In this document: positions 9,088 to 24,000 of the stretch, in pieces
How the letters are laid out: each line of letters starts with the position of its first letter
How positions within the stretch are numbered: position 1 is the stretch's first letter
Source of the DNA: Marinococcus sp. PL1-022
GTDB lineage: Bacteria > Bacillota > Bacilli > Bacillales > Marinococcaceae
DNA: 24,000 nucleotides
Assembly (NCBI RefSeq): GCF_033845285.1
Contig: NZ_JAWXCX010000001.1
Span: forward strand, 239,495-263,494
Direction of reading: 5' to 3'
The notes under the pieces: generated by a model
What the model was told of the DNA's origin: nothing
Database searches by the model: none
The model's input: only the letters and a program-made list of their open reading frames with translations
Program-made: the position numbers and the translations under genes

Positions 9088-9208
9088 CCCTTTCACTAAA
9101 TTGTCATTGAGGTACAAAGAAAAAATTTAGTTGTTTTCTCATACATCAGACGAATTACGGGTATGGGGAGAAAAGGAATCTTTGTATGTCAGACGAGGGG
9201 GTGAAAGA

Positions 9209-10609: not shown

Positions 10610-10621
10610 GGGCAAAGAATA

Positions 10622-11106: not shown

Positions 11107-11456
11107 TGACATGGCTGCTTGTCGCTCTTGGAGGAGCTGTTGGGGCTGCTGCCCGCGCAGCGTTGGTATCATGGTCCAAAGAAAACGGATGGCACCGGGT
11201 GCTGCCGTTTGGCACGATGTTTGTAAATGTATCGGGATCGTTTTTTCTCGGACTGGTCGTGGCGCGGGAAGCCGGTATTACAGAAACAGCGGGCATTGGC
11301 ATCGGTTTTTTAGGTGCGTTCACGACCTTTTCGACCTTTAATATGGAAATCATTCAAAAAATTGAAGCTGGTGAAGGGAGAAGTGCTTTGCTGTACGGAG
11401 TCGCAAGCTATGCCCTGGGGCTTTTGGCGGCGGCAGCCGGATATTTCTTTGGATGA
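11106..11456 (+). CDS. crcB: Fluoride ion channel CrcB/Fluc, paralog 2
   Basis: 116 aa. Contains GT..VN..GSF.LG and GAFTTFSTF. Its start overlaps the upstream stop by 1 nt (TGATG), which implies translational coupling. Confidence 0.95.
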   Translation: MTWLLVALGGAVGAAARAALVSWSKENGWHRVLPFGTMFVNVSGSFFLGLVVAREAGITETAGIGIGFLGAFTTFSTFNMEIIQKIEAGEGRSALLYGVASYALGLLAAAAGYFFG

Positions 11457-12683: not shown

Positions 12684-12871
12684 GGCTATCATCCTTATGT
12701 AAAAAATCAATCATTTGCGTAAAAAGCAGCTGCTCCCATCATAAACCAATTAAGTCTGAAAGATAAGCGCTTACCTTTAATTTCAATAAATAAGGAGAAA
12801 GGGAACAAGCTATTGCTTGTCGAACATTTTAAGGTCAGGGTCTGTTTTCGAAAGAATTACTCTGTAATTTA

Positions 12872-12880
12872 TGGTATAAA
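12872..12880 (+). promoter_or_regulatory. Possible extended -10 promoter element (TGgTATAAA) for the ABC operon
   Basis: TG at 12872-12873 and TATAAA at 12875-12880, about 60 nt upstream of ATG 12939. There is no convincing -35. Confidence 0.3.
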
Positions 12881-12938
12881 ATGGATGCTATATTGTTTAT
12901 TATAGAAGGGAAGTTTTCATCCCTGGAGGAGGGCGTAT

Positions 12939-13835: not shown

Positions 13836-15054
13836 TATGTGGAGAATTTTTGCTCATACGTTTCGGGTACGGGCAGGTGCAAAATCATTTATTGTGTCGA
13901 CGGCGGTTATGCTTGTGGTCGTGCTTATCGCTCTGAGCCTGCCCAGAATTATCGACTTTTTCGGGGACGGGGAAGCAGAGATCAGCAGCCTGGCTGTTGT
14001 CAATGAAAGTGACTCCCTTCAGCTTCCCGGAGAAGCTGCCGGTATAGAGCTTGTGCCGTACGGGCAGGAAGCACAGGCAGAAAACGCCTGGGAGAACGGA
14101 GAAACAGACGGCTACCTGCTCTTTGAAAGCAGCGAAAACGGATATGATGGAAATTTATATACCGATGAAGATACGGGGGACGCGGCTCGCGCCCTTTCCG
14201 CCGGCATCCAGCAGGCACATGTCTCGCAATACGCACAAGAGCTCGGTATTACGGGTGAAGAGGTCCAGAATATTACCTCACCTGTGCAGATTGCAGAAAG
14301 TACAAAGGGCAGTGGAGGGAGCGGAGGCTCCTCCTCCGAAGAGGGGTTTAATCTTCTTTCCTACGCGGTTGTCTTTATAATTTACATTTATTCACTGATG
14401 TGCGGAATCATGATTGCCATGCAGATTGCCAAGGATAAGGAGCAGCGGGTGATGGAAATTCTTATTTCAAGTGCCTCCCCTGTTCAGCACTTGTTCGGCC
14501 GGGCATTCGGAGTATCGGCCATCTGGCTTTTCCAAATGGCCCTGGTGGCGGTAACGGCAGTGATATACGTAAACGCCGCCGGTCTCGATGACATCACCTC
14601 GCTTATCAGCTCGGCAGGAGGAGCCGCAGTTTCCACCTGGATATATGCCGTGGTGTTCCTGCTTCTTGGGATTGTTCTTTATGGAACGCTGTACGCCATG
14701 GTCGGATCGATGGCAGCCAAAACGGAAGAGGTCCAGAACTTCAGCCAGCCGCTGACATTTCTGCTCGTGGGTGCATTTGTCCTGTCGAACTTCGGGCTCG
14801 CGGCTCCGGGGAATATTTTCGTGACTGCAAGCTCCTTCATTCCTTTTTTCACCCCGTTTACAATGTTTGTGAGAACGAATGCATTAGACGTTCCGTGGTG
14901 GCAGATGGGTCTTAGCATCGGACTCAGCCTTGCTCTGGTGGCAGCGGCAGCCTGGTTCAGCGTCCGTCTGTACCGGGGCAGCGTCCTCGTTTACAGCAGT
15001 GATTCATTTAGCAGAAGGGTCAAGCAGGCACGGGAACTTGCCCGCAAAAAGTGA
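13828..15054 (+). CDS. ABC-2 family permease (YhaP/NatB-like)
   Basis: ATG 13828 follows AGGTGA and overlaps the ATPase stop by 8 nt. It has one N-terminal TM, then a long acidic extracytoplasmic domain ending in GSGGSGGSSSE, then about 5 TM helices. Confidence 0.8.
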   Translation: MRNMWRIFAHTFRVRAGAKSFIVSTAVMLVVVLIALSLPRIIDFFGDGEAEISSLAVVNESDSLQLPGEAAGIELVPYGQEAQAENAWENGETDGYLLFESSENGYDGNLYTDEDTGDAARALSAGIQQAHVSQYAQELGITGEEVQNITSPVQIAESTKGSGGSGGSSSEEGFNLLSYAVVFIIYIYSLMCGIMIAMQIAKDKEQRVMEILISSASPVQHLFGRAFGVSAIWLFQMALVAVTAVIYVNAAGLDDITSLISSAGGAAVSTWIYAVVFLLLGIVLYGTLYAMVGSMAAKTEEVQNFSQPLTFLLVGAFVLSNFGLAAPGNIFVTASSFIPFFTPFTMFVRTNALDVPWWQMGLSIGLSLALVAAAAWFSVRLYRGSVLVYSSDSFSRRVKQARELARKK

Positions 15055-15113
15055 TACACTAAAGCTGTACCCTCTATTCTCTTATGCTCACAGGAAAAAG
15101 GAGATGATCGTAT

Positions 15114-15488
15114 ATGGGATTGTTTGATGCCCTGATGGGAAATGCCTCTGACGCGGATTCGAAAAAAGTGGAAGAAGAGCTGCGGGAGTGGTTAACGGCA
15201 GGCGAGCAGGTCGAAAGTGCTTTTAAACTGTACCGGGATTTAATGGTATTTACAAACAAGCGCCTGATTATGATCGACAAGCAGGGAGTCACTGGTAAAA
15301 AGGTGGAATACCACACTATTCCGTACCGGAGCATTTCCCACTACAGAGTAGAAACCGCCGGCACATTTGATTTGGACAGCGAATTGAAAATATGGGTAGG
15401 CAGTAGTGCGGAGCCTATATCCAAGACCTTCCGAAATGATGATAATATTTTTGACGTCCAGCGTGCGCTGAGTAAGTACGTGCTGTAA
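15114..15488 (+). CDS. Bacterial PH-domain protein (bPH_1 / YvbH-like)
   Basis: 124 aa. The sequence MGLFDALMGNAS....L.EGE....AFKL.RDL.VFTNKRLI..DKQG.TGKKVEYH.IPY.SI.H..VETAG.FDLD.ELKIW closely follows the YvbH-type family pattern I remember. RBS AAAGGAG. Confidence 0.8.
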   Translation: MGLFDALMGNASDADSKKVEEELREWLTAGEQVESAFKLYRDLMVFTNKRLIMIDKQGVTGKKVEYHTIPYRSISHYRVETAGTFDLDSELKIWVGSSAEPISKTFRNDDNIFDVQRALSKYVL

Positions 15489-15495
15489 TAGAATT

Positions 15496-15528
15496 TTCCG
15501 GGTGCCCTTCAGGCATCCGGATTCTTTT
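15496..15528 (+). terminator. Rho-independent terminator
   Basis: 10-bp stem TCCGGGTGCC (15496-15505) / GGCATCCGGA (15511-15520) followed by TTCTTTTT. Confidence 0.8.
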
Positions 15529-15619: not shown

Positions 15620-16441
15620 ATGCAGAACAAGGAACAGTCGGCAGTTATCTCGTTGTATGAAAGCAAGCATAAAGAAAAAGACACAGTAGCTACGCACACG
15701 CATGACACCCATCAGCTGCTGTATGTTCTTGATGGGGACGGAGCCTGCGAGCTGGATGAACACGTGTATGATATTACGGCGGATTCTTTTCTTATTGTGC
15801 CTCCCAAAACGAGGCATTCAATCCGTGCGGATTCACATATGACAGTGTTGGTGCTGGAATTGGACGCCGGGAAGCTCAGCCGGGATGTGCGTACACAGCT
15901 GATTCCAAACGTTTTTGGCACGGCCCGTGTACAGTCCTTCAGCGCTATTGACAGCAGTGAGCTCCGGCAGATTATGCGGAAAATGCTTTATGAGCAGTCC
16001 CACGGCGACCAGCTCTGGCAGATGGCGCTTAAAATTCATATTGCTGAGCTCCTTTGCACACTTGCCCGCTCCAATCAGGACGCCGGACCGGGAGATACGA
16101 ATAAACTGCGGGTGGAACGCCTCCGGCAGTACATTGATACGCGTTATTATGATATTGAAAGCGCAGAGGATATCGCCGGCCGGATGGGGATGAGTAAGCG
16201 GTATATGCAGACTATTTTTAAAGAATACTACGAACGGACGCCGATGCAGTATCTGACTGAGGTCCGTCTCGGACTCGTCAAGCAGCTGCTTTTGGAAAGC
16301 GATAAAGATATTGTATCCATATGCTTTGAGGTAGGGTTCGAATCGTTATCCACGTTCTATCGTTTATTTAAAAAACACGTCGGAGTTCCACCGAACATGT
16401 ACCGGACGACCCAGAGAAGCAGGGAAGGGAAGCAGGACTGA
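15620..16441 (+). CDS. AraC/XylS family transcriptional regulator with an N-terminal cupin sensor domain
   Basis: ATG 15620 follows GGAGGA (the track ORF starts at 15575). The cupin-like region is HTHD.HQLLYVLDG......D....I...SFLIVPP..RH. The C-terminal double HTH ends in ...GFESLSTFYRLFKK..G.PP..YR. Confidence 0.85.
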   Translation: MQNKEQSAVISLYESKHKEKDTVATHTHDTHQLLYVLDGDGACELDEHVYDITADSFLIVPPKTRHSIRADSHMTVLVLELDAGKLSRDVRTQLIPNVFGTARVQSFSAIDSSELRQIMRKMLYEQSHGDQLWQMALKIHIAELLCTLARSNQDAGPGDTNKLRVERLRQYIDTRYYDIESAEDIAGRMGMSKRYMQTIFKEYYERTPMQYLTEVRLGLVKQLLLESDKDIVSICFEVGFESLSTFYRLFKKHVGVPPNMYRTTQRSREGKQD

Positions 16442-16503
16442 GCGTTAAATCATTTCCGAATCTGAGAATAAACGTCTGCAACTAATAAGACAGCGCATAC
16501 ATT

Positions 16504-16538
16504 TCTCTCTAGACTGAGAAGTAATCAGTTTAGAGAGG
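16504..16538 (+). promoter_or_regulatory. 14-bp-arm inverted repeat / leader hairpin abutting the Shine-Dalgarno of the first operon gene
   Basis: TCTCTCTAGACTGA (16504-16517), loop GAAGTAA, then TCAGTTTAGAGAGG (16525-16538). As RNA, all 14 positions pair (12 Watson-Crick, 2 G-U). The 3' arm contains most of GAGAGGAG (16533-16540), upstream of ATG 16551. Confidence 0.45.
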
Positions 16539-16550
16539 AGCAGGATTAAA

Positions 16551-17702
16551 ATGGCCGAACATACTATTGGCATTATTATGAACGGAGTAACAGGGAGAAT
16601 GGGGACGAGACAGCACCTGATCCGCTCGATTGCAGCTATCCGCGAGCAGGGAGGCGTCGAGATTGATAAGGGTGAATACATCATGCCGGATCCTGTTTTA
16701 GTAGGCAGAAACGAAGAAAAATTGAAAGCGCTTGCCAAGGAGCATGATATTGCACGCTGGACGACCAGCCTGGACGAAGCCCTCGCAGATGAACATAATG
16801 TGGTTTATTTTGATTCCCAGACGACATCAAGACGTGCTGAAGGCATTAAACGGGCAATTGAAGCCGGTAAACACATTTACTGTGAAAAGCCGACAGCCAC
16901 CTCGATGGAAGGAGCGCTTGAATTAGCCCGTCTGGCTAAAGAGGCTGGAGTTAAAAACGGAGTCGTGCAGGACAAGCTGTTTCTGCCTGGTGTATTGAAG
17001 CTGAAAAGGCTGATCGATGCCGGATTTTTCGGGGAAATACTGTCGGTCCGCATGGAGTTCGGCTACTGGGTATTTGAAGGCGGGTGGCAGGAATCCCAGC
17101 GCCCGTCCTGGAACTACAAAAAAGAAGAAGACGGCGGTATTGTGGTGGACATGTTCCCGCACTGGCGCTATGTGCTTGATGAATTATTCGGCTCGGTCCA
17201 ATCGGTCTCCGCTTCGGTGAAAACGCATATTCCGGAGCGTGTGGACGAGGCGGGAAATACGTATAAAGCAACGGCGGATGACGCCGCCTACGCCACGATG
17301 GAGCTTGAAGGCGGTATTACGGCGCAGATTAACTCCTCCTGGGTGGTACGGGTGGACCGCGATGACCTGCTGACGATTCAGGTGGACGGAACCGAAGGCA
17401 GTGCTGTAGCCGGTCTTAGAAACTGCAAGACCCAGCACCGGGTGAATACGCCAAAGCCTGTGTGGAACCCAGACCTCGAAAACACGATTGACTTTCAGAA
17501 CCAGTGGGAGGAAGTGCCGGACAATCAGCTGTTTGAAAATGCATTCAAAATCCAGTGGGAAATGTTTTTAAAGCACGTGCATCAGGATGAAGCTTTTCCG
17601 TGGGATCTGCTCGAAGGGGCAAAAGGCATGCAGCTGGCTGATCTTGGGCTGCAGTCATCTAAAGAACGCCGCTGGCTCGACGTGCCGGAACTGAATATAT
17701 AA
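16551..17702 (+). CDS. Gfo/Idh/MocA family NAD(P)-dependent oxidoreductase (paralog 1)
   Basis: 383 aa. Has an N-terminal Rossmann segment IGIIMNGVTGRMG, the family-typical CEKP motif, and a C-terminal alpha/beta dimerisation-type domain. Confidence 0.9.
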   Translation: MAEHTIGIIMNGVTGRMGTRQHLIRSIAAIREQGGVEIDKGEYIMPDPVLVGRNEEKLKALAKEHDIARWTTSLDEALADEHNVVYFDSQTTSRRAEGIKRAIEAGKHIYCEKPTATSMEGALELARLAKEAGVKNGVVQDKLFLPGVLKLKRLIDAGFFGEILSVRMEFGYWVFEGGWQESQRPSWNYKKEEDGGIVVDMFPHWRYVLDELFGSVQSVSASVKTHIPERVDEAGNTYKATADDAAYATMELEGGITAQINSSWVVRVDRDDLLTIQVDGTEGSAVAGLRNCKTQHRVNTPKPVWNPDLENTIDFQNQWEEVPDNQLFENAFKIQWEMFLKHVHQDEAFPWDLLEGAKGMQLADLGLQSSKERRWLDVPELNI

Positions 17703-17715
17703 GGAGGGGCAGCTG

Positions 17716-18900
17716 ATGACAAACTATATTTATTTGCCGAAGGCAGACGGAAGCACGTACCGGTATGAATTGACGCAGACAGAACCTCTGCCGGCTCCTT
17801 CGAAAAGCGAGTTCACCTCGAGGACAGCATATTCTGCCGTTCATGTGACAGCAGACCCGTTTGGCAGCAGTGACCCGGTCCGCCGTCCGGCTATTGACTG
17901 GGACAAAACGATGGAGTACCGCCATTACCTGTGGTCTCTCGGCCTGTCGGTGGCAGAGGCGATGGATACTGCCCAGAGAGGCATGGGGCTGGTCTGGGAG
18001 GATGCGAAGGAGCTGATCACCCGCTCAGTGCGGGAAGCAAAGAGCGTGGGCGGCAATATTGCCAGCGGCGCCGGTACGGATCATCTGGTGCCCGGGCCGG
18101 ACGTGACCATTGACGACGTGGTGCAGGCGTACGAAGAGCAGTGCTCCTTCGTGGAGCAGGCCGGAAGTAAAATCATTATGATGGCAAGCCGGGCCCTTGC
18201 CAAAGCGGCCTCATCTGCGGAGGATTACGAATACGTATACGGTAAAATTCTAAACCAGGTGAAGGAGCCGGTCATTCTGCACTGGCTTGGAGATATGTTT
18301 GATCCGAACCTTGCCGGCTACTGGGGCTCAGACGACGTCGATGAGGCGATGGAGGTCTGTCTGCGCGTGCTTCATACGCATGCAGATAAAATTGAAGGCA
18401 TCAAAATTTCGCTTCTGGATGATCAGAAAGAAATCGACATGCGGCGGAGACTGCCGGAAAGCGTTAGAATGTATACTGGTGATGACTTTAATTATCCGAG
18501 TCTGATTGAAGGAGATGAGCAGGGGTACAGCCACGCGCTGCTTGGCATTTTTGATGCGATCGCCCCGGCAGCTGCCGCTGGCTTAAAAGAACTGGATGCG
18601 GGTAATATGCAGAAATACCATGAGATTATGGATCCGACCGTTCCGCTCGCCCGTCATATTTTTCAGCAGCCGACGTTTGCGTATAAAACCGGTGTGGTGT
18701 TTTTAGCTTATTTGAACGGCCATCAGCCGCATTTCCGTATGGTTGCCGGGGCAGAAAGCGCCCGGTCCGTGCTGCATTTCAGCGAATTATTCCGGCTGGC
18801 CGACGAAGCCAGCGTGTTCCGGGATCCGGAGCTTGCTGCAGCGCGCATGAAGCCGATGCTTGAGCTTGCCGGTCTGCAGGCAAAGGAGGTTTATAAATAA
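17716..18900 (+). CDS. DUF993 family protein (uncharacterised, TIM-barrel-like)
   Basis: 394 aa. RTAYSAVHVTADP......IDWDKTMEYRHYLWSLGLSVAEAMDTAQRGMGL matches the hallmark N-terminal block I remember for DUF993. That family is typically annotated only as 'DUF993' or 'dihydrodipicolinate synthase family'. RBS AAGGAGGGG. Confidence 0.7.
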   Translation: MTNYIYLPKADGSTYRYELTQTEPLPAPSKSEFTSRTAYSAVHVTADPFGSSDPVRRPAIDWDKTMEYRHYLWSLGLSVAEAMDTAQRGMGLVWEDAKELITRSVREAKSVGGNIASGAGTDHLVPGPDVTIDDVVQAYEEQCSFVEQAGSKIIMMASRALAKAASSAEDYEYVYGKILNQVKEPVILHWLGDMFDPNLAGYWGSDDVDEAMEVCLRVLHTHADKIEGIKISLLDDQKEIDMRRRLPESVRMYTGDDFNYPSLIEGDEQGYSHALLGIFDAIAPAAAAGLKELDAGNMQKYHEIMDPTVPLARHIFQQPTFAYKTGVVFLAYLNGHQPHFRMVAGAESARSVLHFSELFRLADEASVFRDPELAAARMKPMLELAGLQAKEVYK

Positions 18901-19718
18901 TGGGTTCTCCTGATATGAATCGTCTGAGCCTGAATCAGATCACTACGGAAAACTTGTCTCTGAAGGAGGCTGCCGAAGGGTGCGCGGAACAGCAGATCCC
19001 CTGGATATCTGTATGGCGGCACAAAATAGAGGAAATCGGTTTAAAGGAAAGTAAAAAAATCATCGACGCCAACGGGCTGAAGGTCTCAAGCGTGTGCCGG
19101 GGCGGGATGTTCCCGGCCGCCGATAAAGAAGAACGCCTCCGGCGCATCGATGACAATAAACGAGCGGTGGAAGAGGCTGCAGAGCTGGGCACGGACGTGC
19201 TGGTGCTCGTATGCGGCCCGTCGCCTGATAAGGATCTTATCCGGAGCAGGGAATGGGTGCGCGAAGGCATTGAAGCAGTACTCCCCTTTGCGGAGCAGTA
19301 CGGGGTGAAGCTTGGTATTGAACCGCTCCATCCTATGTATGCGGCAGACCGTTCGGTGATCACCACCCTTGGAGAAGCTAATCAGCTGCAGCAGCAGGTG
19401 GGCAGCAGCCATCTTGGCGTCGTCGTGGATGTGTTCCACGTCTGGTGGGATCCATTTTTGTACAGGGAAATTGAACACGCCGGAGACACCATTCTGGGCT
19501 TTCACGTATCGGACTGGAGTGTGCCGCTGCCGGACATATTTAAAGGCCGCAGCATGATGGGAGAAGGCGTGATTGATATTCCGCGTATCCGCGGTGCGGT
19601 CGAGAAGCAGGGCTACCATGGTCCGATTGAGGTCGAGATTATCAATCAGGCCATCTGGGACCAGCCTGGGGAGCAGACCTTAAAGCAGATGAAAGACGCT
19701 TATCATATACACGTTTAA
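18900..19718 (+). CDS. Sugar phosphate isomerase/epimerase (xylose-isomerase-like TIM barrel, AP_endonuc_2 fold)
   Basis: 272 aa. Contains LGIEPLHP, VVDVFHVWWD, GFHVSDW, GEGVIDIP and GY.GPIEVEI, the metal-ligand-bearing strands typical of this fold. Its ATG overlaps the DUF993 stop (TAATG). Confidence 0.85.
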   Translation: MGSPDMNRLSLNQITTENLSLKEAAEGCAEQQIPWISVWRHKIEEIGLKESKKIIDANGLKVSSVCRGGMFPAADKEERLRRIDDNKRAVEEAAELGTDVLVLVCGPSPDKDLIRSREWVREGIEAVLPFAEQYGVKLGIEPLHPMYAADRSVITTLGEANQLQQQVGSSHLGVVVDVFHVWWDPFLYREIEHAGDTILGFHVSDWSVPLPDIFKGRSMMGEGVIDIPRIRGAVEKQGYHGPIEVEIINQAIWDQPGEQTLKQMKDAYHIHV

Positions 19719-19724
19719 ACAGAT

Positions 19725-19754
19725 AATAGCGGGGCCTGAAGGCTTGCCGCTATT
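19725..19754 (+). other. Intra-operon stem-loop without a U-tract
   Basis: AATAGCGG (19725-19732) pairs with CCGCTATT (19747-19754), with inner GCC/GGC pairing. It is followed by GTCGTATG, which is not a T-run. It sits in the 71-nt gap between operon genes 3 and 4. Confidence 0.4.
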
Positions 19755-19789
19755 GTCGTATGTTACAAAGCAAAAGGAGAGATGTTTTA

Positions 19790-20869
19790 ATGCCGAAGCC
19801 GTCCGAACATACAAATTTTGAACCGGTGCACCACGAAGAGTCTGCCGTAGAAGAAGGGACACTCACAATGGCAGCCGCAGGCCTTGAGCATGGCCATATT
19901 TACGGCATGTGCCACGGAATGAAAAGCGCCGGAGCGACAGTCAAATGGGTCTGGGACAAAGATCCGGAAAAAGTACGAGCGTTTCAGCAGAGCTTTCCGG
20001 AAGCCAAAGAGGCAGAATCACTTTCGCAGGTTCTGCAGGACAAAGGGGTACAGCTGGTGGCAAGCGCTGCTATTCCTGCGGAAAGAGGCCCGCTTGGCCT
20101 CAAAGTGATGGACCACGGCAAACACTACTTTTCCGCTAAGGCACCGTTTACCACTCTCGAACAGCTGCAGCAGGCGGAAGAGAAAACAAAAGCCACCGGG
20201 CTGAACTGGGCCGTTTTTTACAGTGAACGGCTGCAGGTGGAATGCGCAGGCTTTGCCGAGCAGCTGATCAACGAGGGAGCGATTGGAGAAGTCATTCAGG
20301 TGCTTGGTACCGGACCGCACCGGTTGAATATAGCGTCGCGTCCGGAATGGTTTTTCCAAAAAGAGCCCACCGGGGGTATTGTATGCGACATCGGAAGCCA
20401 CCAGATTGAACAGTTCCTCTGGTTCAGCGGCGCCCGGGATGCCGAGGTGCTCAGCAGTACAGCAGCGAATATGGCGCACCCGGAGCATCCCGAATTTGAG
20501 GATTACGGTGACGCCCACCTCCGGGGAGATAACGGAGCGGTACACTATTTTCGCGTGGACTGGTTTACGCCGGACGGCCTGAGCAATTGGGGGGATGGCC
20601 GGACAATAATTCTGGGCACGGAAGGGTATATAGAACTCAGAAAATACGTGGATCTTACAGACAGTGCACGTGGCGAGCGGCTGTATCTGGTTAACCAGGG
20701 CGGCGAAAGAAAATATGATGTAGAAGGGAAAGTAGGATTCCCTTATTTTTTCCGCCTGGCAAAGGACGTGGTGCACGGCACAGTGACAGCCATGCCGCAG
20801 GAGCATGCGTTTAAAGCGGCAGAGCTCAGCCTGAAGGCACAAAAGCAGGCAATAAAGATTAAACGGTAG
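19790..20869 (+). CDS. Gfo/Idh/MocA-like oxidoreductase, divergent (paralog 2)
   Basis: The overall Gfo/Idh/MocA layout is present. The glycine-rich loop reads AAAGLEHGHIYG and the position of the usual EKP motif reads SAKAP. ATG 19790 follows AAAGGAGAG. ATG 19868 (MAAAGLEHG) is an alternative start. Confidence 0.7.
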   Translation: MPKPSEHTNFEPVHHEESAVEEGTLTMAAAGLEHGHIYGMCHGMKSAGATVKWVWDKDPEKVRAFQQSFPEAKEAESLSQVLQDKGVQLVASAAIPAERGPLGLKVMDHGKHYFSAKAPFTTLEQLQQAEEKTKATGLNWAVFYSERLQVECAGFAEQLINEGAIGEVIQVLGTGPHRLNIASRPEWFFQKEPTGGIVCDIGSHQIEQFLWFSGARDAEVLSSTAANMAHPEHPEFEDYGDAHLRGDNGAVHYFRVDWFTPDGLSNWGDGRTIILGTEGYIELRKYVDLTDSARGERLYLVNQGGERKYDVEGKVGFPYFFRLAKDVVHGTVTAMPQEHAFKAAELSLKAQKQAIKIKR

Positions 20870-20885
20870 CAGGAGGTTAAAAGAA

Positions 20886-22076
20886 ATGGAACAGTCATGC
20901 CGGATCGTCCTGGCGGGCACAGCAGGATACGGGGAATTATATTTGCAGACATTAATAGAACAAAACCGCCTTTCCTGGGTGGTGGGCGTGGTCGACATTT
21001 TCCCGGAAAACAGCTCTTTTTATCAGGATATTCAGGCGGCAGGCATTCCGGTATACGAATCACTGGAGACTTTTTACGCCGAAAAGGAAGCGGAATTGGC
21101 AGTGATCGCGACACCTATTCATCTTCATGCCGCTCAGGCAGTTACAGCGATGAGGGCGGGGAGCCACGTACTCTGCGAAAAGCCAGCGTCGGCCTCGTGG
21201 GAGGAAGCAGAAGAAATGCGCCGGGTGCGTGATGAAACCGGAAAATTTTTAGCGGTCGGCTTTAACTGGTCGTTTAGTAATGCCGTACTCGAGTTCAAGG
21301 AAGACATTCAGGCAGGTAAATTTGGAAGGCCGCTTCACGGCAGTGCCCTGGTGCTCTGGCCGCGCAATGAAGCGTATTACGGGCGCTCCAGCTGGGCAGG
21401 CAAAAAGCTTGGCGCAGGCGGTGCCCCGATTTTTGACAGTGTGGCAAATAACGCGACAGCCCACTTTATGCATAATTTGTTTTATGTGCTCGGAGACACC
21501 AAAAACGAAAGCACAAAAATAAATACTCTGGAGATGGAAGTGTACCGTGCCAACCCGATTGAGACATTTGATACATGTGCACTCCGGGCGGTAACTGATA
21601 AAGATGTGGATCTGACATTTTTTGCTTCACATGCGGTTGAAAAAGAAGTGAATCCTTCCTTTTATATGGAGTTTGAAGATGCGGTAGTTTCCTACGAATG
21701 GGGGAGCCCGGTGAAAGCGTTGTGGCACAGCGGGGCAGAAAAAAGCTATAATGATCCTGAGAGTGAACATATGCATAAACTAGATGTATGTATCGATGCG
21801 GTGCTCGGGCATTCCCAGGATATCCGCTGCGGTCTGGAGGCGTCTTACTCTCATCTGCTGACCATTGAAAGCGTGCATCAGGCATTTCCCGAAAGCTATG
21901 CCTTTGCGGAGGAGGTGAAACAGGTGGACGCCTCCCTCGGTTTGACGTATATTCCGGGACTCGCAGAGGTGCTTGAAGCCTGTTACACAGAGCGAAAGCT
22001 TCCGGGGGAAACTACAGCAGCCTGGGCACGGGAAAAGAAAATGCTAAGCATTAACGGCGCCCGCTATCCGTATTGA
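20886..22076 (+). CDS. Gfo/Idh/MocA family oxidoreductase (paralog 3)
   Basis: 396 aa. Has the N-terminal IVLAGTAGYG loop and the CEKP motif. RBS AGGAGG. Confidence 0.85.
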   Translation: MEQSCRIVLAGTAGYGELYLQTLIEQNRLSWVVGVVDIFPENSSFYQDIQAAGIPVYESLETFYAEKEAELAVIATPIHLHAAQAVTAMRAGSHVLCEKPASASWEEAEEMRRVRDETGKFLAVGFNWSFSNAVLEFKEDIQAGKFGRPLHGSALVLWPRNEAYYGRSSWAGKKLGAGGAPIFDSVANNATAHFMHNLFYVLGDTKNESTKINTLEMEVYRANPIETFDTCALRAVTDKDVDLTFFASHAVEKEVNPSFYMEFEDAVVSYEWGSPVKALWHSGAEKSYNDPESEHMHKLDVCIDAVLGHSQDIRCGLEASYSHLLTIESVHQAFPESYAFAEEVKQVDASLGLTYIPGLAEVLEACYTERKLPGETTAAWAREKKMLSINGARYPY

Positions 22077-22104
22077 ATATGCATTATCTAAGGGGGACAA
22101 AAGC

Positions 22105-23136
22105 ATGCTTCAGGAAGAAAAGCTAAAGCACCAGACAATGCGAAAATGGATAATCCAAAAAGGAAAAAGCCCCCGGGTGGAACTGTTAAACCTTGGGGCA
22201 AGAGTTCAGCGGATATGGGCGAAGGACCGAAATGGAGTTGAAGAAAATATTTTGCTCAGCTACGCAGGGCTGGAGCAGTACGAGCGGGACAACATCTTTC
22301 TCGGCGCAGTCGTCGGCCCGGTGGCTGGTCGTATTCCCGAGGGACGGATGACAGCAGCCGACGTAGAGCATCCCTTAACTACAAATGAAGGCAGGCATCA
22401 TTTGCATGGAGGAGACGGCGGCTTTGGCAATGTCTACTGGGAAGCCGACGCCGGTGAAGATGACCAGCAGGCATGGGTACGTTTTTCGATTCACAGAACG
22501 GACGGCACTGACGGCTATCCTGGGAATGTGAAGGCATCTGTTACTTACATTGTGGAGGCCGGCGGCGATTTTACCGTCGAATATGATGGAGAGTCAGATA
22601 CTGATACCTGGTTCAGCCCGACCCAGCATATGTACATAAACCTGAGCGGAAATAACAAGCGCCCGGTCACAGAACAGCATGCTGAGATTCAAGCCTCGGA
22701 GGTCCTGGAGCTTGATAGAGAGCTGATTCCTACAGGAAAGCTTCTTTCAACAGCGGGAACGCCCTTTGAACTAAACGGAGATAAACCGCTCGGCGAACAT
22801 ATTAACAGCTCCCATGAGCAGGTGCGTGACGTGGCTGGCGGCATCGATCATTTTTTTATCCTCGAAGAAGGGAAAGAACCACAGGCAAGTGTATGGGATG
22901 AGTCTTCAGGACGGCAGCTTGATATTATCACAAGCGCTCCGGGGGCTGTGGTGTATACATCAAACAATGGGCCTGAACAGGATTTTGAAGCGGGACCCAG
23001 AGAAAAGCACCGCGGTATCTGCATTGAAACCCAGCAGCTGCCGGTGGATTTTGCTCATTTAGGAAAGCCAACTGCATATCTGAGTGCAAAAAACCATTTC
23101 CAGAGTTCTACGACCCTTCGAATGAACACAAGATAA
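22105..23136 (+). CDS. galM: Aldose 1-epimerase (mutarotase) family protein
   Basis: 343 aa. Contains GR...R, HLHGG..GF....W, GYPGN, PTQHMYINL, GIDHFF and the C-terminal CIETQQLP, which are the ordered hallmark motifs of aldose 1-epimerases. RBS AAGGGGGA. Confidence 0.85.
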   Translation: MLQEEKLKHQTMRKWIIQKGKSPRVELLNLGARVQRIWAKDRNGVEENILLSYAGLEQYERDNIFLGAVVGPVAGRIPEGRMTAADVEHPLTTNEGRHHLHGGDGGFGNVYWEADAGEDDQQAWVRFSIHRTDGTDGYPGNVKASVTYIVEAGGDFTVEYDGESDTDTWFSPTQHMYINLSGNNKRPVTEQHAEIQASEVLELDRELIPTGKLLSTAGTPFELNGDKPLGEHINSSHEQVRDVAGGIDHFFILEEGKEPQASVWDESSGRQLDIITSAPGAVVYTSNNGPEQDFEAGPREKHRGICIETQQLPVDFAHLGKPTAYLSAKNHFQSSTTLRMNTR

Positions 23137-23141
23137 CCAAG

Positions 23142-23171
23142 AAAAAACAACTCTTCCGGAGTTGTTTTTTT
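23142..23171 (+). terminator. Rho-independent terminator ending the sugar operon
   Basis: Stem AACAACTC (23146-23153) / GAGTTGTT (23159-23166), loop TTCCG, then TTTTT. Confidence 0.85.
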
Positions 23172-23313: not shown

Positions 23314-24000
23314 ATGAAAAAGTGGAAATGGGCGCGGGCCGGAACGATAGCATTAACTTCTTCGGCACTGCTGACACTGGCCGGCTGTGGAGGGAGCGGA
23401 AGTGCTTCATCAGAATCAGCAGAGGCGAATGCAGAAGAAACACAGACGTTAACACTTGCACATATTCACAACGATGCAAGTCCTGTGTATCAAAGTCTTG
23501 AAGACTTTGCTGATAAAGTGGAAGAAAAAACTGATGGAAGCGTACAGGTGGATATTTACGCAGAGGGGGTACTCGGTGGAGAAACGAAGGTAATGGAGCT
23601 GGTGCAGAACGGGGTGATTGATTTTGCCAAGGTAAACGGCGGAGTCGTGGAAAGCTTCGATGAGCAGTTCTCTGTCTTCAGTCTGCCGTATATATTTTCG
23701 AGTAACGAACAATTCCGCTCATTTATGGAAACGGATACAATTGATGAAATGTACAACGATTTATCAGAGGCCCAGCTTCGCGGCATTACTTATTACGATG
23801 CAGGGGCCCGGAGTTTCTATACACAGGATACAAAAATAGAAAGCCCGGAGGATCTCCAGGGGCTCAAAATTCGGACAATGACCAATGTTACTTCAATCGA
23901 AACGATGGAAATGCTCGGTGCTTCGCCAACGCCGCTTTCAGCAACCGAAGTTTATACATCATTGCAGCAGGGGGTCATTGACGGAGCGGAGAGCAGCCCA
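23314..24000 (+). CDS. TRAP transporter solute-binding lipoprotein (DctP family), 3' end outside the window
   Basis: This ORF is absent from the track because it has no stop within the window. I translated it by hand: MKKWKWARAGTIALTSSALLTLAGCGG... (lipobox LAGC), then ...LTLAHIHN....Y....FA.KVEE.T.G.V.V.IY..G.LG.E....E.VQ.G.ID... and ...EVYTSLQQGVIDGAESSP. This is the DctP-type pattern. RBS AAAGGGG lies 8 nt upstream. Confidence 0.9.
   Translation, partial: MKKWKWARAGTIALTSSALLTLAGCGGSGSASSESAEANAEETQTLTLAHIHNDASPVYQSLEDFADKVEEKTDGSVQVDIYAEGVLGGETKVMELVQNGVIDFAKVNGGVVESFDEQFSVFSLPYIFSSNEQFRSFMETDTIDEMYNDLSEAQLRGITYYDAGARSFYTQDTKIESPEDLQGLKIRTMTNVTSIETMEMLGASPTPLSATEVYTSLQQGVIDGAESSP

What the first reader, a model, noticed from the sequence alone, without database searches (positions are those of the whole stretch)
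15620..23136. AraC-linked six-gene operon (3x Gfo/Idh/MocA, DUF993, xylose-isomerase-like TIM barrel, mutarotase): candidate uncharacterised oxidative sugar or glycoside pathway
Seen in sequence: six same-strand genes run from 16551 to 23136. Gaps are 13, -1, 71, 16 and 28 nt, the only canonical terminator is at the far end (23142-23171), and a cupin-AraC regulator lies immediately upstream. The operon has no glycoside hydrolase, kinase, aldolase or phosphotransferase gene. Established knowledge: Gfo/Idh/MocA dehydrogenases paired with xylose-isomerase-like TIM-barrel enzymes are the core of several redox-assisted sugar pathways. Examples are levoglucosan degradation (LgdA, LgdB1/B2, LgdC: oxidation, elimination, hydration, reduction), C-glycoside deglycosylation (DgpA with DgpB/C; CarA with CarB/C), 3-keto-glycoside beta-elimination routes, and inositol catabolism (IolG/IolW/IolX with IolE/IolI). 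Inference: several oxidoreductases could provide oxidise-then-re-reduce steps, and the mutarotase suggests that a free aldose is consumed or released. DUF993 could supply a missing chemical step, for example a hydratase, lyase or partner subunit. As far as I know, the oxidoreductase/DUF993/TIM-barrel triad has no assigned function. That makes this the most plausible undescribed system in the window.
Basis: partly seen in the sequence, partly recalled or inferred. Interest (0 to 1): 0.7.

Follow-up and report, generated by a model that had tools for sequence, protein, structure and literature searches.

The report
Orphan sugar-acid operon around DUF993
This is a real AraC-linked operon whose core (a dehydrogenase, an aldolase-like protein of unknown function called DUF993, and an isomerase-like barrel enzyme) recurs across many bacterial phyla with no assigned function, and its neighbours point to kinase-free breakdown of a sugar acid rather than a glycoside.

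Summary
Seven same-strand genes lie at the stated coordinates and are bounded by two good terminators. The domain calls are correct (DUF993 E 2e-187).

Only three of the six operon genes form the conserved unit. GFO1-DUF993-TIM occurs in that order in 62 of 80 related genome loci from at least seven phyla. All three have solved but unnamed structures (3OQB, 4DNH, 7VPF/3JU2). I found no paper, NCBIfam model or PDB name that assigns a function to DUF993.

DUF993 is not a blank. It has a DHDPS/NAL (class I aldolase) fold, and Lys230 aligns with the Schiff-base lysine (conserved in 111 of 114 members). So the operon does carry a candidate C-C lyase.

Its binding protein is closest to D-glucuronate and D-galacturonate binders. 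Elsewhere the triad sits beside acid-type transporters, glycerate kinase, uronate dehydrogenase, kdgD, and rhamnose or pectin genes.

The barrel enzyme is closest to isomerases and epimerases (IolI, UlaE, IolO). It is not close to LgdB1, DgpBC, CarBC or IolE.

Best reading: a phosphorylation-free sugar-acid pathway, probably for a hexuronate-type substrate, in which DUF993 splits a keto sugar acid into C3 units. The chemistry is inferred, not shown.

The parts
15497..15521 (+). Intrinsic terminator that closes the preceding bPH-domain gene and forms the upstream boundary of the unit
   Evidence: 10-bp stem, 7 G-C pairs, T-run; gene content.
15620..16441 (+). Cupin-type AraC family regulator (273 aa from the ATG at 15620)
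   Evidence: Pfam AraC_binding, Cupin_2 and HTH_18. The gene call on L088 gives 273 aa. An orthologous AraC lies next to the triad in 13 loci, all Bacillota in the gene maps.
16442..16550 (+). 109-nt regulator-operon spacer with a GAGGAG ribosome-binding site before the GFO1 ATG; presumed AraC-controlled promoter (inferred)
   Evidence: Sequence. No terminator was found in this spacer.
16551..17702 (+). GFO1: Gfo/Idh/MocA oxidoreductase and obligate neighbour of DUF993 (core member 1)
   Evidence: Pfam. PDB 3OQB, named only 'oxidoreductase', E 1e-164. Lies directly upstream of DUF993 in 67 of 80 loci at 56-75% identity.
17716..18900 (+). DUF993 protein: DHDPS/NAL-fold barrel with candidate Schiff-base Lys230 (core member 2); predicted C-C lyase
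   Evidence: PF06187 E 2e-187. PDB 4DNH, 'uncharacterized', E 1e-147. AF2 model pLDDT 84; Foldseek TM-score (target-normalised) about 0.8 to DHDPS structures. hhalign 93% probability, with K230 aligned to DapA K161. K230 kept in 111 of 114 members.
18900..19718 (+). TIM: xylose-isomerase-like barrel (core member 3); start overlaps the DUF993 stop by 1 nt; predicted keto-sugar isomerase or epimerase
   Evidence: PF01261. PDB 7VPF, 3JU2 and 3QC0, none with a tested function. The profile search ranks IolI (7e-15), UlaE and TM0416 next. Lies directly downstream of DUF993 in 63 of 80 loci.
19790..20869 (+). GFO2: Gfo/Idh/MocA oxidoreductase (accessory)
   Evidence: Pfam. PDB 2P2S and 3U3X, 'putative oxidoreductase'. 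Present in Halobacillus, Oceanobacillus and Geomicrobium, and scattered in alphaproteobacterial loci beside CUT1 ABC genes.
20886..22076 (+). GFO3: Gfo/Idh/MocA oxidoreductase (accessory); nearest solved relatives are sugar 3-dehydrogenases
   Evidence: Pfam. PDB 3Q2K and 3Q2I E about 1e-19; DgpA (7XR9) 3e-13. Found in about 10 Bacillota loci.
22105..23136 (+). GalM-like aldose 1-epimerase (accessory, specific to this lineage)
   Evidence: Aldose_epim E 2e-57. galM_Leloir scores 231 bits, below its 398-bit cut-off. Found only in near-identical contigs L088 and L089.
23141..23171 (+). Intrinsic terminator (palindromic, so usable on both strands)
   Evidence: dG -15.2 kcal/mol, z = -4.0.
23314..24000 (+). 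5' part of a TRAP solute-binding lipoprotein (DctP) from the hexuronate-binding branch; DctQ and DctM follow beyond the window
   Evidence: Translation. Best PDB matches are 4N91 (D-glucuronate binder, E 8e-40), 4P1L, 4PF8, 4X8R and 4N8Y. Ligands for 4N91, 4MHF, 4X8R and 4N8Y come from PMC7660916 and PMC11668362. L088 shows DctP-DctQ-DctM. Orthologues follow the operon in Halobacillus and Oceanobacillus.

Best explanation
The locus encodes an AraC-controlled, phosphorylation-free pathway for a carboxylated sugar. In this organism the substrate is most likely a hexuronate-type product of pectin or rhamnogalacturonan breakdown, imported by the adjacent TRAP system.

The conserved engine is the triad GFO1-DUF993-TIM. 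The proposed steps are all inferred:
1. An NAD(P)-dependent dehydrogenase (GFO1, replaced by an SDR in a second architecture) and an IolI/IolO-like barrel isomerase or epimerase (TIM) convert the sugar acid into a specific keto sugar acid.
2. DUF993, a divergent DHDPS/NAL-fold enzyme, forms a Schiff base with that keto group through Lys230. It then breaks a C-C bond by retro-aldol or the closely related diketo-hydrolytic chemistry.
3. The products are two C3-level fragments: pyruvate or dihydroxyacetone, plus glycerate, tartronate semialdehyde or glyceraldehyde.
4. These fragments enter metabolism through enzymes encoded elsewhere, such as glycerate kinase, dihydroxyacetone kinase and aldehyde dehydrogenase.

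GFO2, GFO3 and the mutarotase are lineage-specific front-end steps. They would set the anomer and carry out redox conversion of the imported aldose acid (uronate to aldonate or aldarate).

Shown here: gene structure, synteny, fold, conserved lysine and neighbouring gene families. Inferred: the substrate, the order of steps, the bond cleaved and the products.
For: - Triad synteny: 62 of 80 loci from Bacillota, Alpha-, Beta- and Gammaproteobacteria, Actinomycetota, Chloroflexota, Acidobacteriota, Gemmatimonadota, Verrucomicrobiota and others. A dehydrogenase always directly precedes DUF993 where checked: GFO1, a different GFO (L020), or an SDR.
- DUF993 fold and lysine. All polar residues at the C-terminal ends of the eight strands are more than 90% conserved, including in the SDR-type loci.
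- Acid-type uptake systems:
  - A uronate-branch TRAP binding protein lies in the window and follows the operon in Halobacillus and Oceanobacillus.
  - Other TRAP systems occur in Salicibibacter, L020 and L083.
  - TTT occurs in 11 loci plus Palleronia and Pseudoroseomonas, an NMT1-type ABC system in 13-23 loci, and a LIV-type ABC system in 3-5 loci.
- Links to C3 products: glycerate kinase is translationally coupled to DUF993 on pAO1. It is also present in the Sinorhizobium pSymA, Paracoccus and 'Roseateles' clusters and near the Marinobacterium triad. glpFKD-dhaKLM lies directly upstream in Gracilibacillus. An aldehyde dehydrogenase is present in pAO1 and in Rhizobiaceae loci.
- Links to uronates and aldarates: a bona fide Udh homologue (PDB 3RFT, E 3e-59) lies next to GFO1-DUF993 in L083 and is also present in L019. 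kdgD, a mandelate-racemase-family gene and an NADP aldehyde dehydrogenase flank the triad in Palleronia.
- Links to pectin and rhamnose: RhaEW and RhaI lie downstream in this organism, and rhaM/B/A/EW plus an RG-I lyase flank the operon in Halobacillus. A Pel9A-like lyase lies near it in Oceanobacillus.
- TIM's nearest named relatives are isomerases and epimerases that act next to a carbonyl.
Against: - No enzyme was assayed, and the substrate is unknown.
- DUF993 does not hit Pfam DHDPS at E <= 0.01. The family's catalytic Tyr133 aligns with His189, and the N-terminal pyruvate-binding motif region does not align. Classic pyruvate-aldolase chemistry is therefore not assured.
- The many conserved His, Asp and Glu residues could equally form a metal site.
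- Gfo/Idh/MocA enzymes usually act on cyclic polyols, and the best named hits of all three GFOs are IolG.
- The window's TRAP binding protein carries Ser-Ser where uronate binders have Asn-Asn ('DGAESSP' against 'DGAENN'). Its ligand may therefore not be plain GlcA or GalA.
- The TRAP genes lie behind a terminator.
- Some loci carry neutral-sugar ABC systems instead (pAO1 CUT2, Paenibacillus lautus and Devosia CUT1).
- The SDR-type clusters add a CoA transferase, enoyl-CoA hydratase and acyl-CoA dehydrogenase/ETF, which this scheme does not explain.
- The 80 loci are the best-scoring subset of at least 593 matches, so the synteny figures describe close orthologues only.
Confidence: 0.4

Rival explanations
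1. Diketo-hydrolase variant of the non-phosphorylative aldonate route. A dehydratase makes a 2-keto-3-deoxy sugar acid; this would be TIM, or the enolase-superfamily protein found upstream in Proteobacteria. GFO1 or the SDR oxidises C4, and DUF993 hydrolyses the 2,4-diketo acid to pyruvate plus a free acid (glycerate, lactate or glycolate). This shares the C-C-cleavage idea with the best explanation but fixes the order as dehydratase, then dehydrogenase, then hydrolase.
For: - The gene order enolase-superfamily protein, GFO1, DUF993 occurs in 18 proteobacterial loci.
- The SDR that replaces GFO1 is annotated like a 3-ketoacyl reductase. From my own knowledge, the known L-KDR, L-KDF and KD-pentonate 4-dehydrogenases are SDRs.
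- Free-acid products would explain the glycerate kinase and the CoA transferase next to DUF993 where no aldehyde dehydrogenase is present.
- TIM and its orthologues show faint UxuA (mannonate dehydratase) hits.
Against: - TIM's closest named relatives are isomerases and epimerases, not dehydratases.
- From my own knowledge, the known diketo hydrolases are FAH-family enzymes, and no NAL-fold hydrolase precedent is known to me.
- With a uronate or aldarate substrate the acid product would be tartronate, which is awkward metabolically (inference).
Confidence: 0.2
2. Cyclitol pathway. GFO enzymes oxidise an inositol or a carboxylated cyclitol to an inosose, and TIM (IolI-like) interconverts inososes. 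DUF993 then opens the ring by Schiff-base retro-aldol, the reverse of the inositol-phosphate synthase cyclisation, or by diketone hydrolysis as in the Thermotoga IolG/IolM/IolN/IolO route. The product would be a hexos-5-ulose or 5-keto-gluconate. A GFO would reduce it to a free aldose, and the mutarotase would handle that aldose.
For: - All three GFOs have IolG as their best NCBIfam hit (66, 38 and 62 bits).
- TIM's best characterised PDB relative is IolI over its full length (E 7e-15), and its best NCBIfam hit is IolO.
- This reading gives natural roles to three oxidoreductases and to a GalM-type mutarotase.
- pAO1 carries a CUT2-type sugar ABC transporter.
Against: - All these scores lie far below the equivalog cut-offs (355 and 300 bits).
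- Acid-type transporters dominate the contexts, and no iol genes (iolC, D, E, B, J) were seen in any locus map.
- The glycerate kinase, Udh and kdgD links are left unexplained.
Confidence: 0.12
3. This is a redox-assisted glycoside or anhydrosugar cleavage system: 3-keto oxidation by a GFO, beta-elimination by the TIM barrel, then hydration and re-reduction, as in the Lgd, Dgp/Car and 3-keto-glycoside routes. DUF993 would supply a missing step.
For: - GFO3's nearest solved relatives are sugar 3-dehydrogenases (3Q2K and 3Q2I at about 1e-19, DgpA at 3e-13, a glucuronide 3-dehydrogenase 8TDI at 3e-7).
- The operon carries several oxidoreductases together with an XI-like barrel.
- The Paenibacillus lautus triad lies next to a CUT1 ABC transporter and a GH43 gene.
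- The altered uronate-type TRAP pocket could accept a uronide (speculation).
Against: - The LGDH and BT_2158/2159 model scores are 17-63 bits against cut-offs of 650-750.
- The TIM profile finds no chain named as a 3-keto-levoglucosan eliminase, C-glycoside deglycosidase or inosose dehydratase at E <= 0.01, and finds only the epimerase YcjR at 6e-4.
- The conserved core lacks GFO3.
- DUF993's fold points to Schiff-base C-C chemistry.
Confidence: 0.12
4. Oxidative decarboxylation of a free uronate or aldonate. GFO1 makes a beta-keto acid (for example a 4-keto-uronate, as in UDP-glucuronate decarboxylase, or a 3-keto-aldonate, as in the animal uronate cycle or the bacterial tetronate route). DUF993 decarboxylates it through a Schiff base, and TIM isomerises the resulting keto-pentose. 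GFO2 and GFO3 reduce it to a pentose, which the mutarotase equilibrates.
For: - Every core member has a role, and the scheme fits acid import with no kinase in the operon.
- TIM resembles UlaE, OtnI and Hyi-type isomerases and epimerases.
- The NAL-fold enzyme KdgD is a precedent for decarboxylation within this fold (my own knowledge).
- A GalM-type mutarotase fits a neutral aldose product.
- The homologous pAO1 cluster has been linked to xylose (PMC8190789, which cites Mihasan 2013).
Against: - The repeated glycerate kinase, aldehyde dehydrogenase and dihydroxyacetone kinase links are not explained.
- The mutarotase is confined to one lineage.
- No pentose genes were seen adjacent.
Confidence: 0.1
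5. Weimberg-type oxidative pentose pathway, as proposed in the literature for the pAO1 homologues. GFO1 would be the xylose dehydrogenase, DUF993 the 2-keto-3-deoxy-pentonate dehydratase (like the DHDPS-family L-KDA dehydratase), and an aldehyde dehydrogenase would make 2-oxoglutarate.
For: - pAO1 carries a sugar ABC transporter, a GMC oxidoreductase, AldH, GFO1 (57% identical), DUF993 (49% identical) and glycerate kinase.
- PMC8190789 states that pAO1 encodes an oxidative xylose pathway.
Against: - GFO1 scores 40 bits against the Gfo6 xylose dehydrogenase model (cut-off 350).
- No xylonate dehydratase or lactonase is present in any cluster.
- Glycerate kinase has no role in a Weimberg route.
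- The window has no aldehyde dehydrogenase, and it has an acid-type importer.
- I could not read the primary paper.
Confidence: 0.06

Closest known systems
E. coli galactarate/glucarate pathway (GarD/GudD dehydratase, GarL aldolase, GarR tartronate-semialdehyde reductase, GarK glycerate kinase)
   Same: Both take up a sugar acid, make a keto-deoxy acid, cleave it by aldol chemistry to pyruvate plus a C3 aldehyde, reduce that aldehyde and use glycerate kinase. Glycerate kinase is repeatedly linked to DUF993. An enolase-superfamily protein lies upstream in Proteobacteria.
   Different: None of the window proteins is an orthologue. DUF993 has the class I (lysine) NAL fold, whereas GarL is a class II metal aldolase. 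The redox partner is a Gfo/Idh/MocA enzyme or an SDR, not a beta-hydroxyacid dehydrogenase. TIM has no counterpart.
Agrobacterium oxidative uronate pathway (Udh, Gli, Gci, KdgD, 2-oxoglutarate-semialdehyde dehydrogenase)
   Same: Both combine a dehydrogenase, an isomerase, an enolase-superfamily enzyme and a DHDPS-fold enzyme acting on uronate-derived acids. Udh, kdgD and a mandelate-racemase-family gene occur next to the triad in some loci.
   Different: kdgD co-occurs with DUF993 rather than being replaced by it. DUF993 is only about 15% identical to DHDPS-family structures. No semialdehyde dehydrogenase is present in the window.
Non-phosphorylative L-rhamnose, L-fucose and pentose routes with a 4-dehydrogenase and a diketo hydrolase (LRA5/LRA6 type)
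   Same: The clusters share a mutarotase, an aldose dehydrogenase, an acid-sugar dehydratase, a dehydrogenase and a C-C cleaving enzyme, with no kinase and with pyruvate as a product.
   Different: In the known routes the cleaving enzymes are FAH-family hydrolases and the dehydrogenases are SDRs. Here they are DUF993 and GFO1. No lactonase is present.
Inositol enzymes IolG, IolI and IolO (Bacillus and Thermotoga pathways)
   Same: These are the best named relatives of the GFO proteins (IolG) and of TIM (IolI in the PDB, IolO in NCBIfam).
   Different: All scores are far below the family cut-offs. No other iol genes are nearby, and acid-type transporters predominate.
Levoglucosan (LgdA/B1/B2/C), C-glycoside (DgpA/B/C, CarA/B/C) and 3-keto-glycoside systems
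   Same: These systems also pair a Gfo/Idh/MocA oxidoreductase with a xylose-isomerase-like barrel. GFO3 is distantly related to DgpA.
   Different: The family tests fail. The conserved core contains a NAL-fold protein that these systems lack. No glycoside-type context surrounds most triads.
pAO1 sugar cluster of Paenarthrobacter nicotinovorans (proposed oxidative xylose pathway)
   Same: It contains true homologues: GFO1 (57% identical) and DUF993 (49% identical), translationally coupled.
   Different: It has no TIM, GFO2, GFO3 or mutarotase. It adds a GMC oxidoreductase, AldH, glycerate kinase and a CUT2 ABC transporter. No biochemical role for its DUF993 protein was found in the literature I could reach.

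Membership tests
Pfam DUF993 (PF06187) | Full-length match above the gathering score | tested here: met
   E 2e-187, 623 bits against a cut-off of 24, profile positions 1-382 of 382.
DHDPS/NAL class I aldolase superfamily | (beta/alpha)8 barrel with C-terminal helices that superposes on DHDPS/NAL structures | tested here: met
   AF2 model pLDDT 84. After 4DNH, the next 49 Foldseek matches listed are DHDPS-family chains or the related hydratase-aldolase PhdJ, with probability 1.0 and target-normalised TM-score 0.71-0.82. Profile-profile hhalign gives 93% probability, E 3e-7.
DHDPS/NAL class I aldolase superfamily | Schiff-base lysine at the end of strand 6 (E. coli DapA K161) | tested here: met
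   K230 in 'GIKISLL' aligns with K161 in 'GIKEATG' and with the 'GIKYA' motif of 3D0C. It lies at the end of predicted strand 226-231 and is conserved in 111 of 114 diverse members. This shows position only; Schiff-base formation was not shown.
DHDPS/NAL class I aldolase superfamily | Catalytic tyrosines (DapA Y133, Y107) and the pyruvate-binding GxTGE motif; a Pfam PF00701 match | tested here: not met
   H189 aligns with Y133. Y107 has no tyrosine counterpart, and the motif region is not aligned. There is no PF00701 hit at E <= 0.01.
DHDPS/NAL class I aldolase superfamily | Covalent imine with a keto substrate | not testable with these tools
   Needs borohydride trapping with mass spectrometry, or a crystal soak of 4DNH.
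Levoglucosan pathway (LgdA dehydrogenase, LgdB1 eliminase) | Match to the LGDH equivalog model; TIM related to LgdB1 | tested here: not met
   NF052479 scores 62.7, 34.8 and 48.2 bits against a cut-off of 650. No chain named as a levoglucosan-pathway eliminase appears among the PDB profile hits at E <= 0.01.
C-glycoside deglycosylation (DgpA/DgpBC, CarA/CarBC) | Close DgpA homologue plus a two-subunit XI-like lyase | tested here: not met
   Similarity to DgpA (7XR9) is only E 5e-9, 4e-6 and 3e-13. No chain named as a C-glycoside deglycosidase was found with the TIM profile, and the operon has no small beta-subunit gene.
3-keto-glycoside route (BT_2158/BT_2159 families) | Match to the glycoside or disaccharide 3-dehydrogenase equivalog models | tested here: not met
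   Scores of 16.6-28.8 bits against cut-offs of 650-750.
Inositol catabolism (IolG, IolE, IolI, IolO) | Equivalog-level matches and co-located iol genes | tested here: not met
   IolG TIGR04380 scores 65.8, 38.3 and 62.1 bits against 355. IolO scores 53.8 against 300. IolI is the best characterised PDB relative of TIM (E 7e-15) but remains distant. No iolB, C, D, E or J genes were seen in the locus maps.
Galactose mutarotase (GalM) | Aldose_epim domain and the galM equivalog score | tested here: inconclusive
   The domain test is met (E 2e-57). The equivalog scores of 231 and 176 bits fall below the cut-offs of 398 and 240. The substrate is unknown.
Hexuronate-binding TRAP solute-binding proteins | Clusters with structurally defined GlcA and GalA binders; the two ligand arginines and the asparagine described for STM3169/4N91 are present | tested here: inconclusive
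   The best PDB hits are uronate binders (ligands). Arginines in 'GARSFY' and 'LKIR' are conserved against 4N91. The 'GAENN' motif reads 'GAESS' in the window, Halobacillus and Oceanobacillus. That these positions are the ligand-contacting residues is my reading of the alignment.
AraC/XylS regulators with a cupin sensor | N-terminal AraC_binding/cupin domain and a C-terminal double HTH | tested here: met
   PF02311, PF07883 and PF12833.

The most novel reading that the evidence does not exclude
DUF993 founds a functionally new branch of the class I aldolase (NAL) fold. With its dedicated dehydrogenase and an IolI-like barrel isomerase it forms a previously undescribed, ATP-independent 'oxidise, isomerise, cleave' module. 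This module would be very widespread in soil, rhizosphere and halophilic bacteria (more than 8000 clusters at 90% identity). It would convert carboxylated sugars or cyclitols directly into C3 units, or decarboxylate free uronates to pentoses, as an alternative to the isomerase (Ashwell) and Udh/KdgD uronate pathways.
Probability: 0.45. Interest if true: 0.75.

Novelty: new variant of a known kind. Interest (0 to 1): 0.6.

Why it matters
Three structural-genomics orphans (3OQB, 4DNH and 3JU2/3QC0/7VPF) turn out to be the products of one tightly conserved gene triad found in at least seven phyla and on many rhizobial and actinobacterial megaplasmids.

Assigning their chemistry would have three effects:
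- It would annotate thousands of genes now labelled 'dihydrodipicolinate synthase family protein', 'Gfo/Idh/MocA oxidoreductase' and 'sugar phosphate isomerase/epimerase'.
- It would probably reveal a new kinase-free route for plant-derived sugar acids.
- It would add a new reaction type, or at least a new substrate class, to the NAL aldolase superfamily, which is of interest for biocatalysis.

The work here turns an open-ended 'unknown operon' into a short list of testable reactions with defined reagents.

Tried and rejected
- Literature (all 10 searches used): DUF993, PF06187, IPR009334, the PDB codes 4DNH, 3JU2, 3QC0, 7VPF, 3OQB, 2P2S and 3U3X, the SMc0413x tags, guessed pSymA tag ranges, PGAP product-name combinations and pAO1 sugar-cluster terms. 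None gave a function. The only mention was SMc04132/33 as PhaR-dependent genes in a table.
- The primary pAO1 xylose paper and the pAO1 sequence paper are not held.
- A 14-sequence DUF993 alignment was too diverse for the genome scan, so I repeated the scan with 7 sequences.
- My first neighbour clustering was corrupted by long antisense ORFs in high-GC loci. I redid it with a GC3-based gene picker.
- hhalign of the DUF993 profile against single DapA or KdgD sequences was uninformative. Profile against profile worked.
- An exact-sequence look-up of the mutarotase found nothing.
- I looked for Rosetta-stone fusions of DUF993 with GFO1 or TIM among long family members and found none.
- The proteobacterial enolase-superfamily neighbour has no PDB sequence relative at E < 1.
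- Rejected readings:
  - DUF993 as a plain KdgD replacement, because kdgD co-occurs with it.
  - The mutarotase as part of the conserved system, because it is lineage-specific.
  - The six genes as one universally conserved unit, because only three are.

Full report

Yes. The ORF list agrees with independent gene calls on a 99%-identical public contig (L088). Seven + strand genes result:

| Gene | Coordinates |
|---|---|
| AraC | 15620-16441 |
| GFO1 | 16551-17702 |
| DUF993 | 17716-18900 |
| TIM | 18900-19718 |
| GFO2 | 19790-20869 |
| GFO3 | 20886-22076 |
| Aldose 1-epimerase | 22105-23136 |

Pfam confirms each domain, with DUF993 at E 2e-187 over the whole model.

The unit is bracketed by two convincing terminators, at 15497-15521 and 23141-23171. 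The second folds on the + strand with dG -15.2 kcal/mol (z = -4.0) and is followed by a U-run. The other terminator-like hits inside the unit are weak and lie within coding sequence. A GAGGAG ribosome-binding site precedes GFO1.

**2. What is conserved, and what is not?**

DUF993 is a large family. It has more than 8000 clusters at 90% identity and 1817 representatives at 50% identity with E <= 0.001.

A scan of one genome per species returned at least 593 loci, and the best 80 were kept. They come from Bacillota, Alpha-, Beta- and Gammaproteobacteria, Actinomycetota, Chloroflexota, Acidobacteriota, Gemmatimonadota, Verrucomicrobiota, Rokubacteria and Methylomirabilia.

I ran tblastn of the window proteins against these loci. 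Results:
- GFO1 lies directly upstream of DUF993 in 67 of 80 loci, and TIM lies directly downstream in 63 of 80. Both are present in 62 of 80.
- The median GFO1-to-DUF993 gap is about 15 nt.
- Identities are high for catabolic enzymes compared across phyla: GFO1 56-75%, DUF993 54-68%, TIM 39-67%.

By contrast:
- AraC, GFO2 and GFO3 travel with the triad mainly in Bacillota.
- The mutarotase was found only in near-identical contigs of the same organism.

The conserved unit is therefore the triad, not the six-gene operon. One caveat applies: the 80 loci are the best-scoring subset, so these figures describe close orthologues.

A second architecture appears on plasmids of Sinorhizobium (pSymA), Paracoccus, Caballeronia, Paraburkholderia and a 'Roseateles' record. 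There an SDR takes the place of GFO1, giving SDR-DUF993-TIM. This unit is embedded among a CoA transferase, enoyl-CoA hydratase, acyl-CoA dehydrogenase with ETF, glycerate kinase, aldo-keto reductases and a GMC oxidoreductase. In Psychrobacillus a different GFO, a CaiB-type CoA transferase, an acyl-CoA dehydrogenase and a TRAP binding protein surround DUF993. Wherever I looked closely, a dehydrogenase directly preceded DUF993.

**3. What is DUF993?**

Its closest solved structure is 4DNH (SMc04132, named 'uncharacterized protein', E 1e-147). An AlphaFold model (pLDDT 84, pTM 0.85) matches 4DNH. Beyond that it matches dozens of dihydrodipicolinate synthase structures at target-normalised TM-score of about 0.8 and roughly 15% identity.

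I compared a 114-sequence DUF993 profile with a small NAL-family profile (DapA, NanA, YjhH, KdgD and four neighbours). This gave 93% probability and E 3e-7 over 200 columns. The alignment shows the following:
- Lys230 ('GIKISLL', at the end of predicted strand 6) aligns with the Schiff-base Lys161 of E. coli DapA ('GIKEATG').
- Lys230 is present in 111 of 114 diverse members, including the SDR-type and pAO1 proteins.
- The family's catalytic Tyr133 aligns with an invariant His189.
- Tyr107 and the pyruvate-binding motif region have no clear counterpart.
- Pfam DHDPS is not hit.

The residues at the C-terminal ends of all eight predicted strands are more than 90% conserved. They are H43, E81, D84, T85, R88, T121, D122, S158, R159, H189, W190, K230, S232, T254, D256 and D257. 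Together they define one active site shared by both architectures.

DUF993 is thus a divergent member of the class I aldolase fold and a plausible Schiff-base C-C lyase. Its chemistry need not be classic pyruvate aldol cleavage, and a metal site cannot be excluded.

**4. The partners**

- **GFO1.** It equals PDB 3OQB ('oxidoreductase', E 1e-164). Its named relatives are all distant: 1,5-anhydrofructose reductase, YjhC, levoglucosan dehydrogenase and scyllo-inositol dehydrogenase.
- **GFO2.** It equals 2P2S/3U3X, both named only 'putative oxidoreductase'.
- **GFO3.** It is nearest to the sugar 3-dehydrogenases 3Q2K and 3Q2I and to DgpA.
- **TIM.** It equals 7VPF, 3JU2 (SMc04130) and 3QC0. A 35-sequence profile next finds IolI (inosose isomerase, E 7e-15, full length), UlaE, TM0416/IolO, ketose 3-epimerases and YcjR. 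At E <= 0.01 it finds no chain named as a 3-keto-levoglucosan eliminase, C-glycoside deglycosidase or inosose dehydratase.
- **NCBIfam.** It gives only far sub-threshold hits. IolG is the best hit for all three GFOs, IolO is the best hit for TIM, and DUF993 has no hit at all.

**5. Context in this organism and its relatives**

A lipoprotein gene for a TRAP solute-binding protein starts at 23314. On L088 it is followed by dctQ, dctM, a bifunctional rhamnulose-1-phosphate aldolase/dehydrogenase (1280 bits against a cut-off of 1014) and a Gram-positive-type L-rhamnose isomerase.

The binding protein's best PDB relatives are 4N91, 4P1L, 4PF8, 4X8R and 4N8Y. Papers I could read describe 4N91 and 4MHF as D-glucuronate or D-galacturonate binders. 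They describe 4X8R and 4N8Y as glucuronate- and galacturonate-bound (PMC7660916, PMC11668362).

In the printed alignments, arginines conserved with the uronate binders are retained. However, 'GAENN' reads 'GAESS' here and in the Halobacillus and Oceanobacillus orthologues. The ligand may therefore be a modified uronate.

Related genomes show similar surroundings:
- **Halobacillus naozhouensis.** The same operon without the mutarotase, followed by the orthologous dctPQM and an RG-I lyase, and preceded by rhaM, an MFS gene, rhaB, rhaA, rhaEW and a DeoR gene.
- **Oceanobacillus kimchii.** The operon plus dctPQM, near a Pel9A-like lyase.
- **Salicibibacter.** The triad plus an MFS gene and another TRAP system.
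- **Gracilibacillus.** glpFKD-dhaKLM directly upstream, with GH43-like, GH67 and UxuA genes nearby.
- **Paenibacillus lautus.** A CUT1 ABC system and a GH43 gene instead.

**6. Context elsewhere**

In Proteobacteria the typical operon is a TetR gene, then a transporter, then the triad. The transporter is TTT TctCBA, an NMT1-type ABC system or a LIV-type ABC system. Between transporter and triad there is often a second XI-like barrel. A 460-510 aa divergent enolase-superfamily protein lies there in 18 loci (MR_MLE_C at 21.5 bits; no PDB relative).

Other recurring neighbours:
- **Glycerate kinase.**
  - It starts 1 nt after DUF993 on pAO1.
  - It is present in the SDR-type clusters.
  - It lies near the Marinobacterium triad.
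- **Aldehyde dehydrogenase.** It accompanies DUF993 on pAO1 and in Rhizobiaceae loci.
- **Uronate dehydrogenase.** A true homologue (3RFT, E 3e-59) with a GntR gene and a TRAP system ('GAENN' type) lies next to GFO1-DUF993 in L083. Another Udh is present in the Microvirga locus.
- **Aldarate genes.** In Palleronia the TTT-triad-TetR unit abuts an NADP aldehyde dehydrogenase, kdgD and a mandelate-racemase-family gene.

**7. Interpretation**

Taken together, the evidence favours a kinase-free catabolic module for a carboxylated sugar. The evidence is an aldolase-fold enzyme with a conserved lysine, an obligate dehydrogenase partner, an isomerase-like barrel, mostly acid-type importers, and repeated links to glycerate kinase, dihydroxyacetone kinase, aldehyde dehydrogenase, Udh and kdgD. 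In the window's clade there are also links to uronate-type TRAP uptake and to pectin and rhamnose genes.

In this module, redox and isomerisation steps would set up a keto sugar acid, and DUF993 would cleave it into C3-level products. I put 0.4 on this general scheme.

Within the scheme I cannot decide among three versions:
- (a) A keto-deoxy aldarate or aldonate cleaved to pyruvate plus tartronate semialdehyde or glyceraldehyde, with GFO1 as the reductase (Gar-like).
- (b) Tagaturonate or fructuronate cleaved to dihydroxyacetone plus tartronate semialdehyde.
- (c) The 4-dehydrogenase plus diketo-hydrolase order, which I list as a separate rival at 0.2. It best fits the SDR-type clusters and the gene order enolase-superfamily protein, GFO1, DUF993.

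The remaining rivals are:

| Rival | Confidence |
|---|---|
| Cyclitol ring opening | 0.12 |
| Oxidative decarboxylation of a free uronate | 0.10 |
| Weimberg-type xylose route proposed for pAO1 | 0.06 |

The CoA-dependent genes of the SDR-type clusters remain unexplained by every scheme.

**8. Novelty**

I found no published or curated function for DUF993 or for the triad. The component superfamilies and the general logic (oxidative, non-phosphorylative acid-sugar catabolism) are known. I therefore file this as a new variant of a known kind. There is a fair chance (about 0.45) that the chemistry is a new branch of the NAL fold and a new pathway.

The finding is a good, well-bounded target for enzyme discovery, but its function remains unproven.

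Noticed in passing
window 10616-10680 (+): A fluoride riboswitch (Rfam RF01734, 60 bits against a gathering score of 34, E 1e-14) lies upstream of two small overlapping ORFs at 10732-11106 and 11106-11456. These are probably a CrcB fluoride-channel pair, but I did not check the ORFs.
   Followed up: partly
window 7072-9817 (+): A MecA_N/PBP_dimer/transpeptidase penicillin-binding protein (671 aa, PBP2a-like architecture) is followed directly by a VanZ-like protein.
   Followed up: no
window 11496-15488: An MFS transporter lies on the - strand at 11496-12710. It is followed on the + strand by an ABC_tran plus ABC2_membrane_3 exporter pair (12939-15054) and a bPH_1 domain protein (15114-15488). 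These appear unrelated to the sugar operon.
   Followed up: no
related loci, e.g. L022 9004-10431, L019 7390-8778, L018 7352-8782: A 460-510 aa divergent enolase-superfamily protein lies directly upstream of GFO1 in 18 proteobacterial loci. It hits MR_MLE_C at only 21.5 bits, below the Pfam cut-off, and has KxK, D, E and D/E-like motifs. It has no PDB sequence relative at E < 1, so it is an orphan family in its own right.
   Followed up: partly
L093 1-12000; L098 1-13400; L002 2200-13800: A conserved plasmid cluster of about 12 genes occurs in Sinorhizobium pSymA, Paracoccus and a 'Roseateles' record. It contains a GMC oxidoreductase, two aldo-keto reductases, a CoA transferase, enoyl-CoA hydratase, glycerate kinase, acyl-CoA dehydrogenase, SDR-DUF993-TIM and ETF alpha and beta, with ETF-QO in the 'Roseateles' record. 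It looks like a separate undescribed pathway that combines DUF993 chemistry with acyl-CoA steps.
   Followed up: partly
L096 7998-17182 (Streptomyces yangpuensis plasmid): A divergent DUF993 member (43% identical) sits between a mycofactocin-type SDR and an FAD monooxygenase, at the head of a type I polyketide synthase gene. This suggests recruitment into secondary metabolism.
   Followed up: no
Bradyrhizobium loci, e.g. L034 13485-14039, L040 14696-15286: A two-subunit thiamine-diphosphate decarboxylase pair lies a few kb downstream of the triad in about 7 loci. By size and split-gene layout it resembles sulfopyruvate decarboxylases. A cytochrome P450 lies in the same stretch in about 9 loci. 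In Microvirga a malate/L-lactate dehydrogenase-like protein (by eye, not scanned) is adjacent. Whether these genes are functionally linked to the triad is unknown.
   Followed up: no
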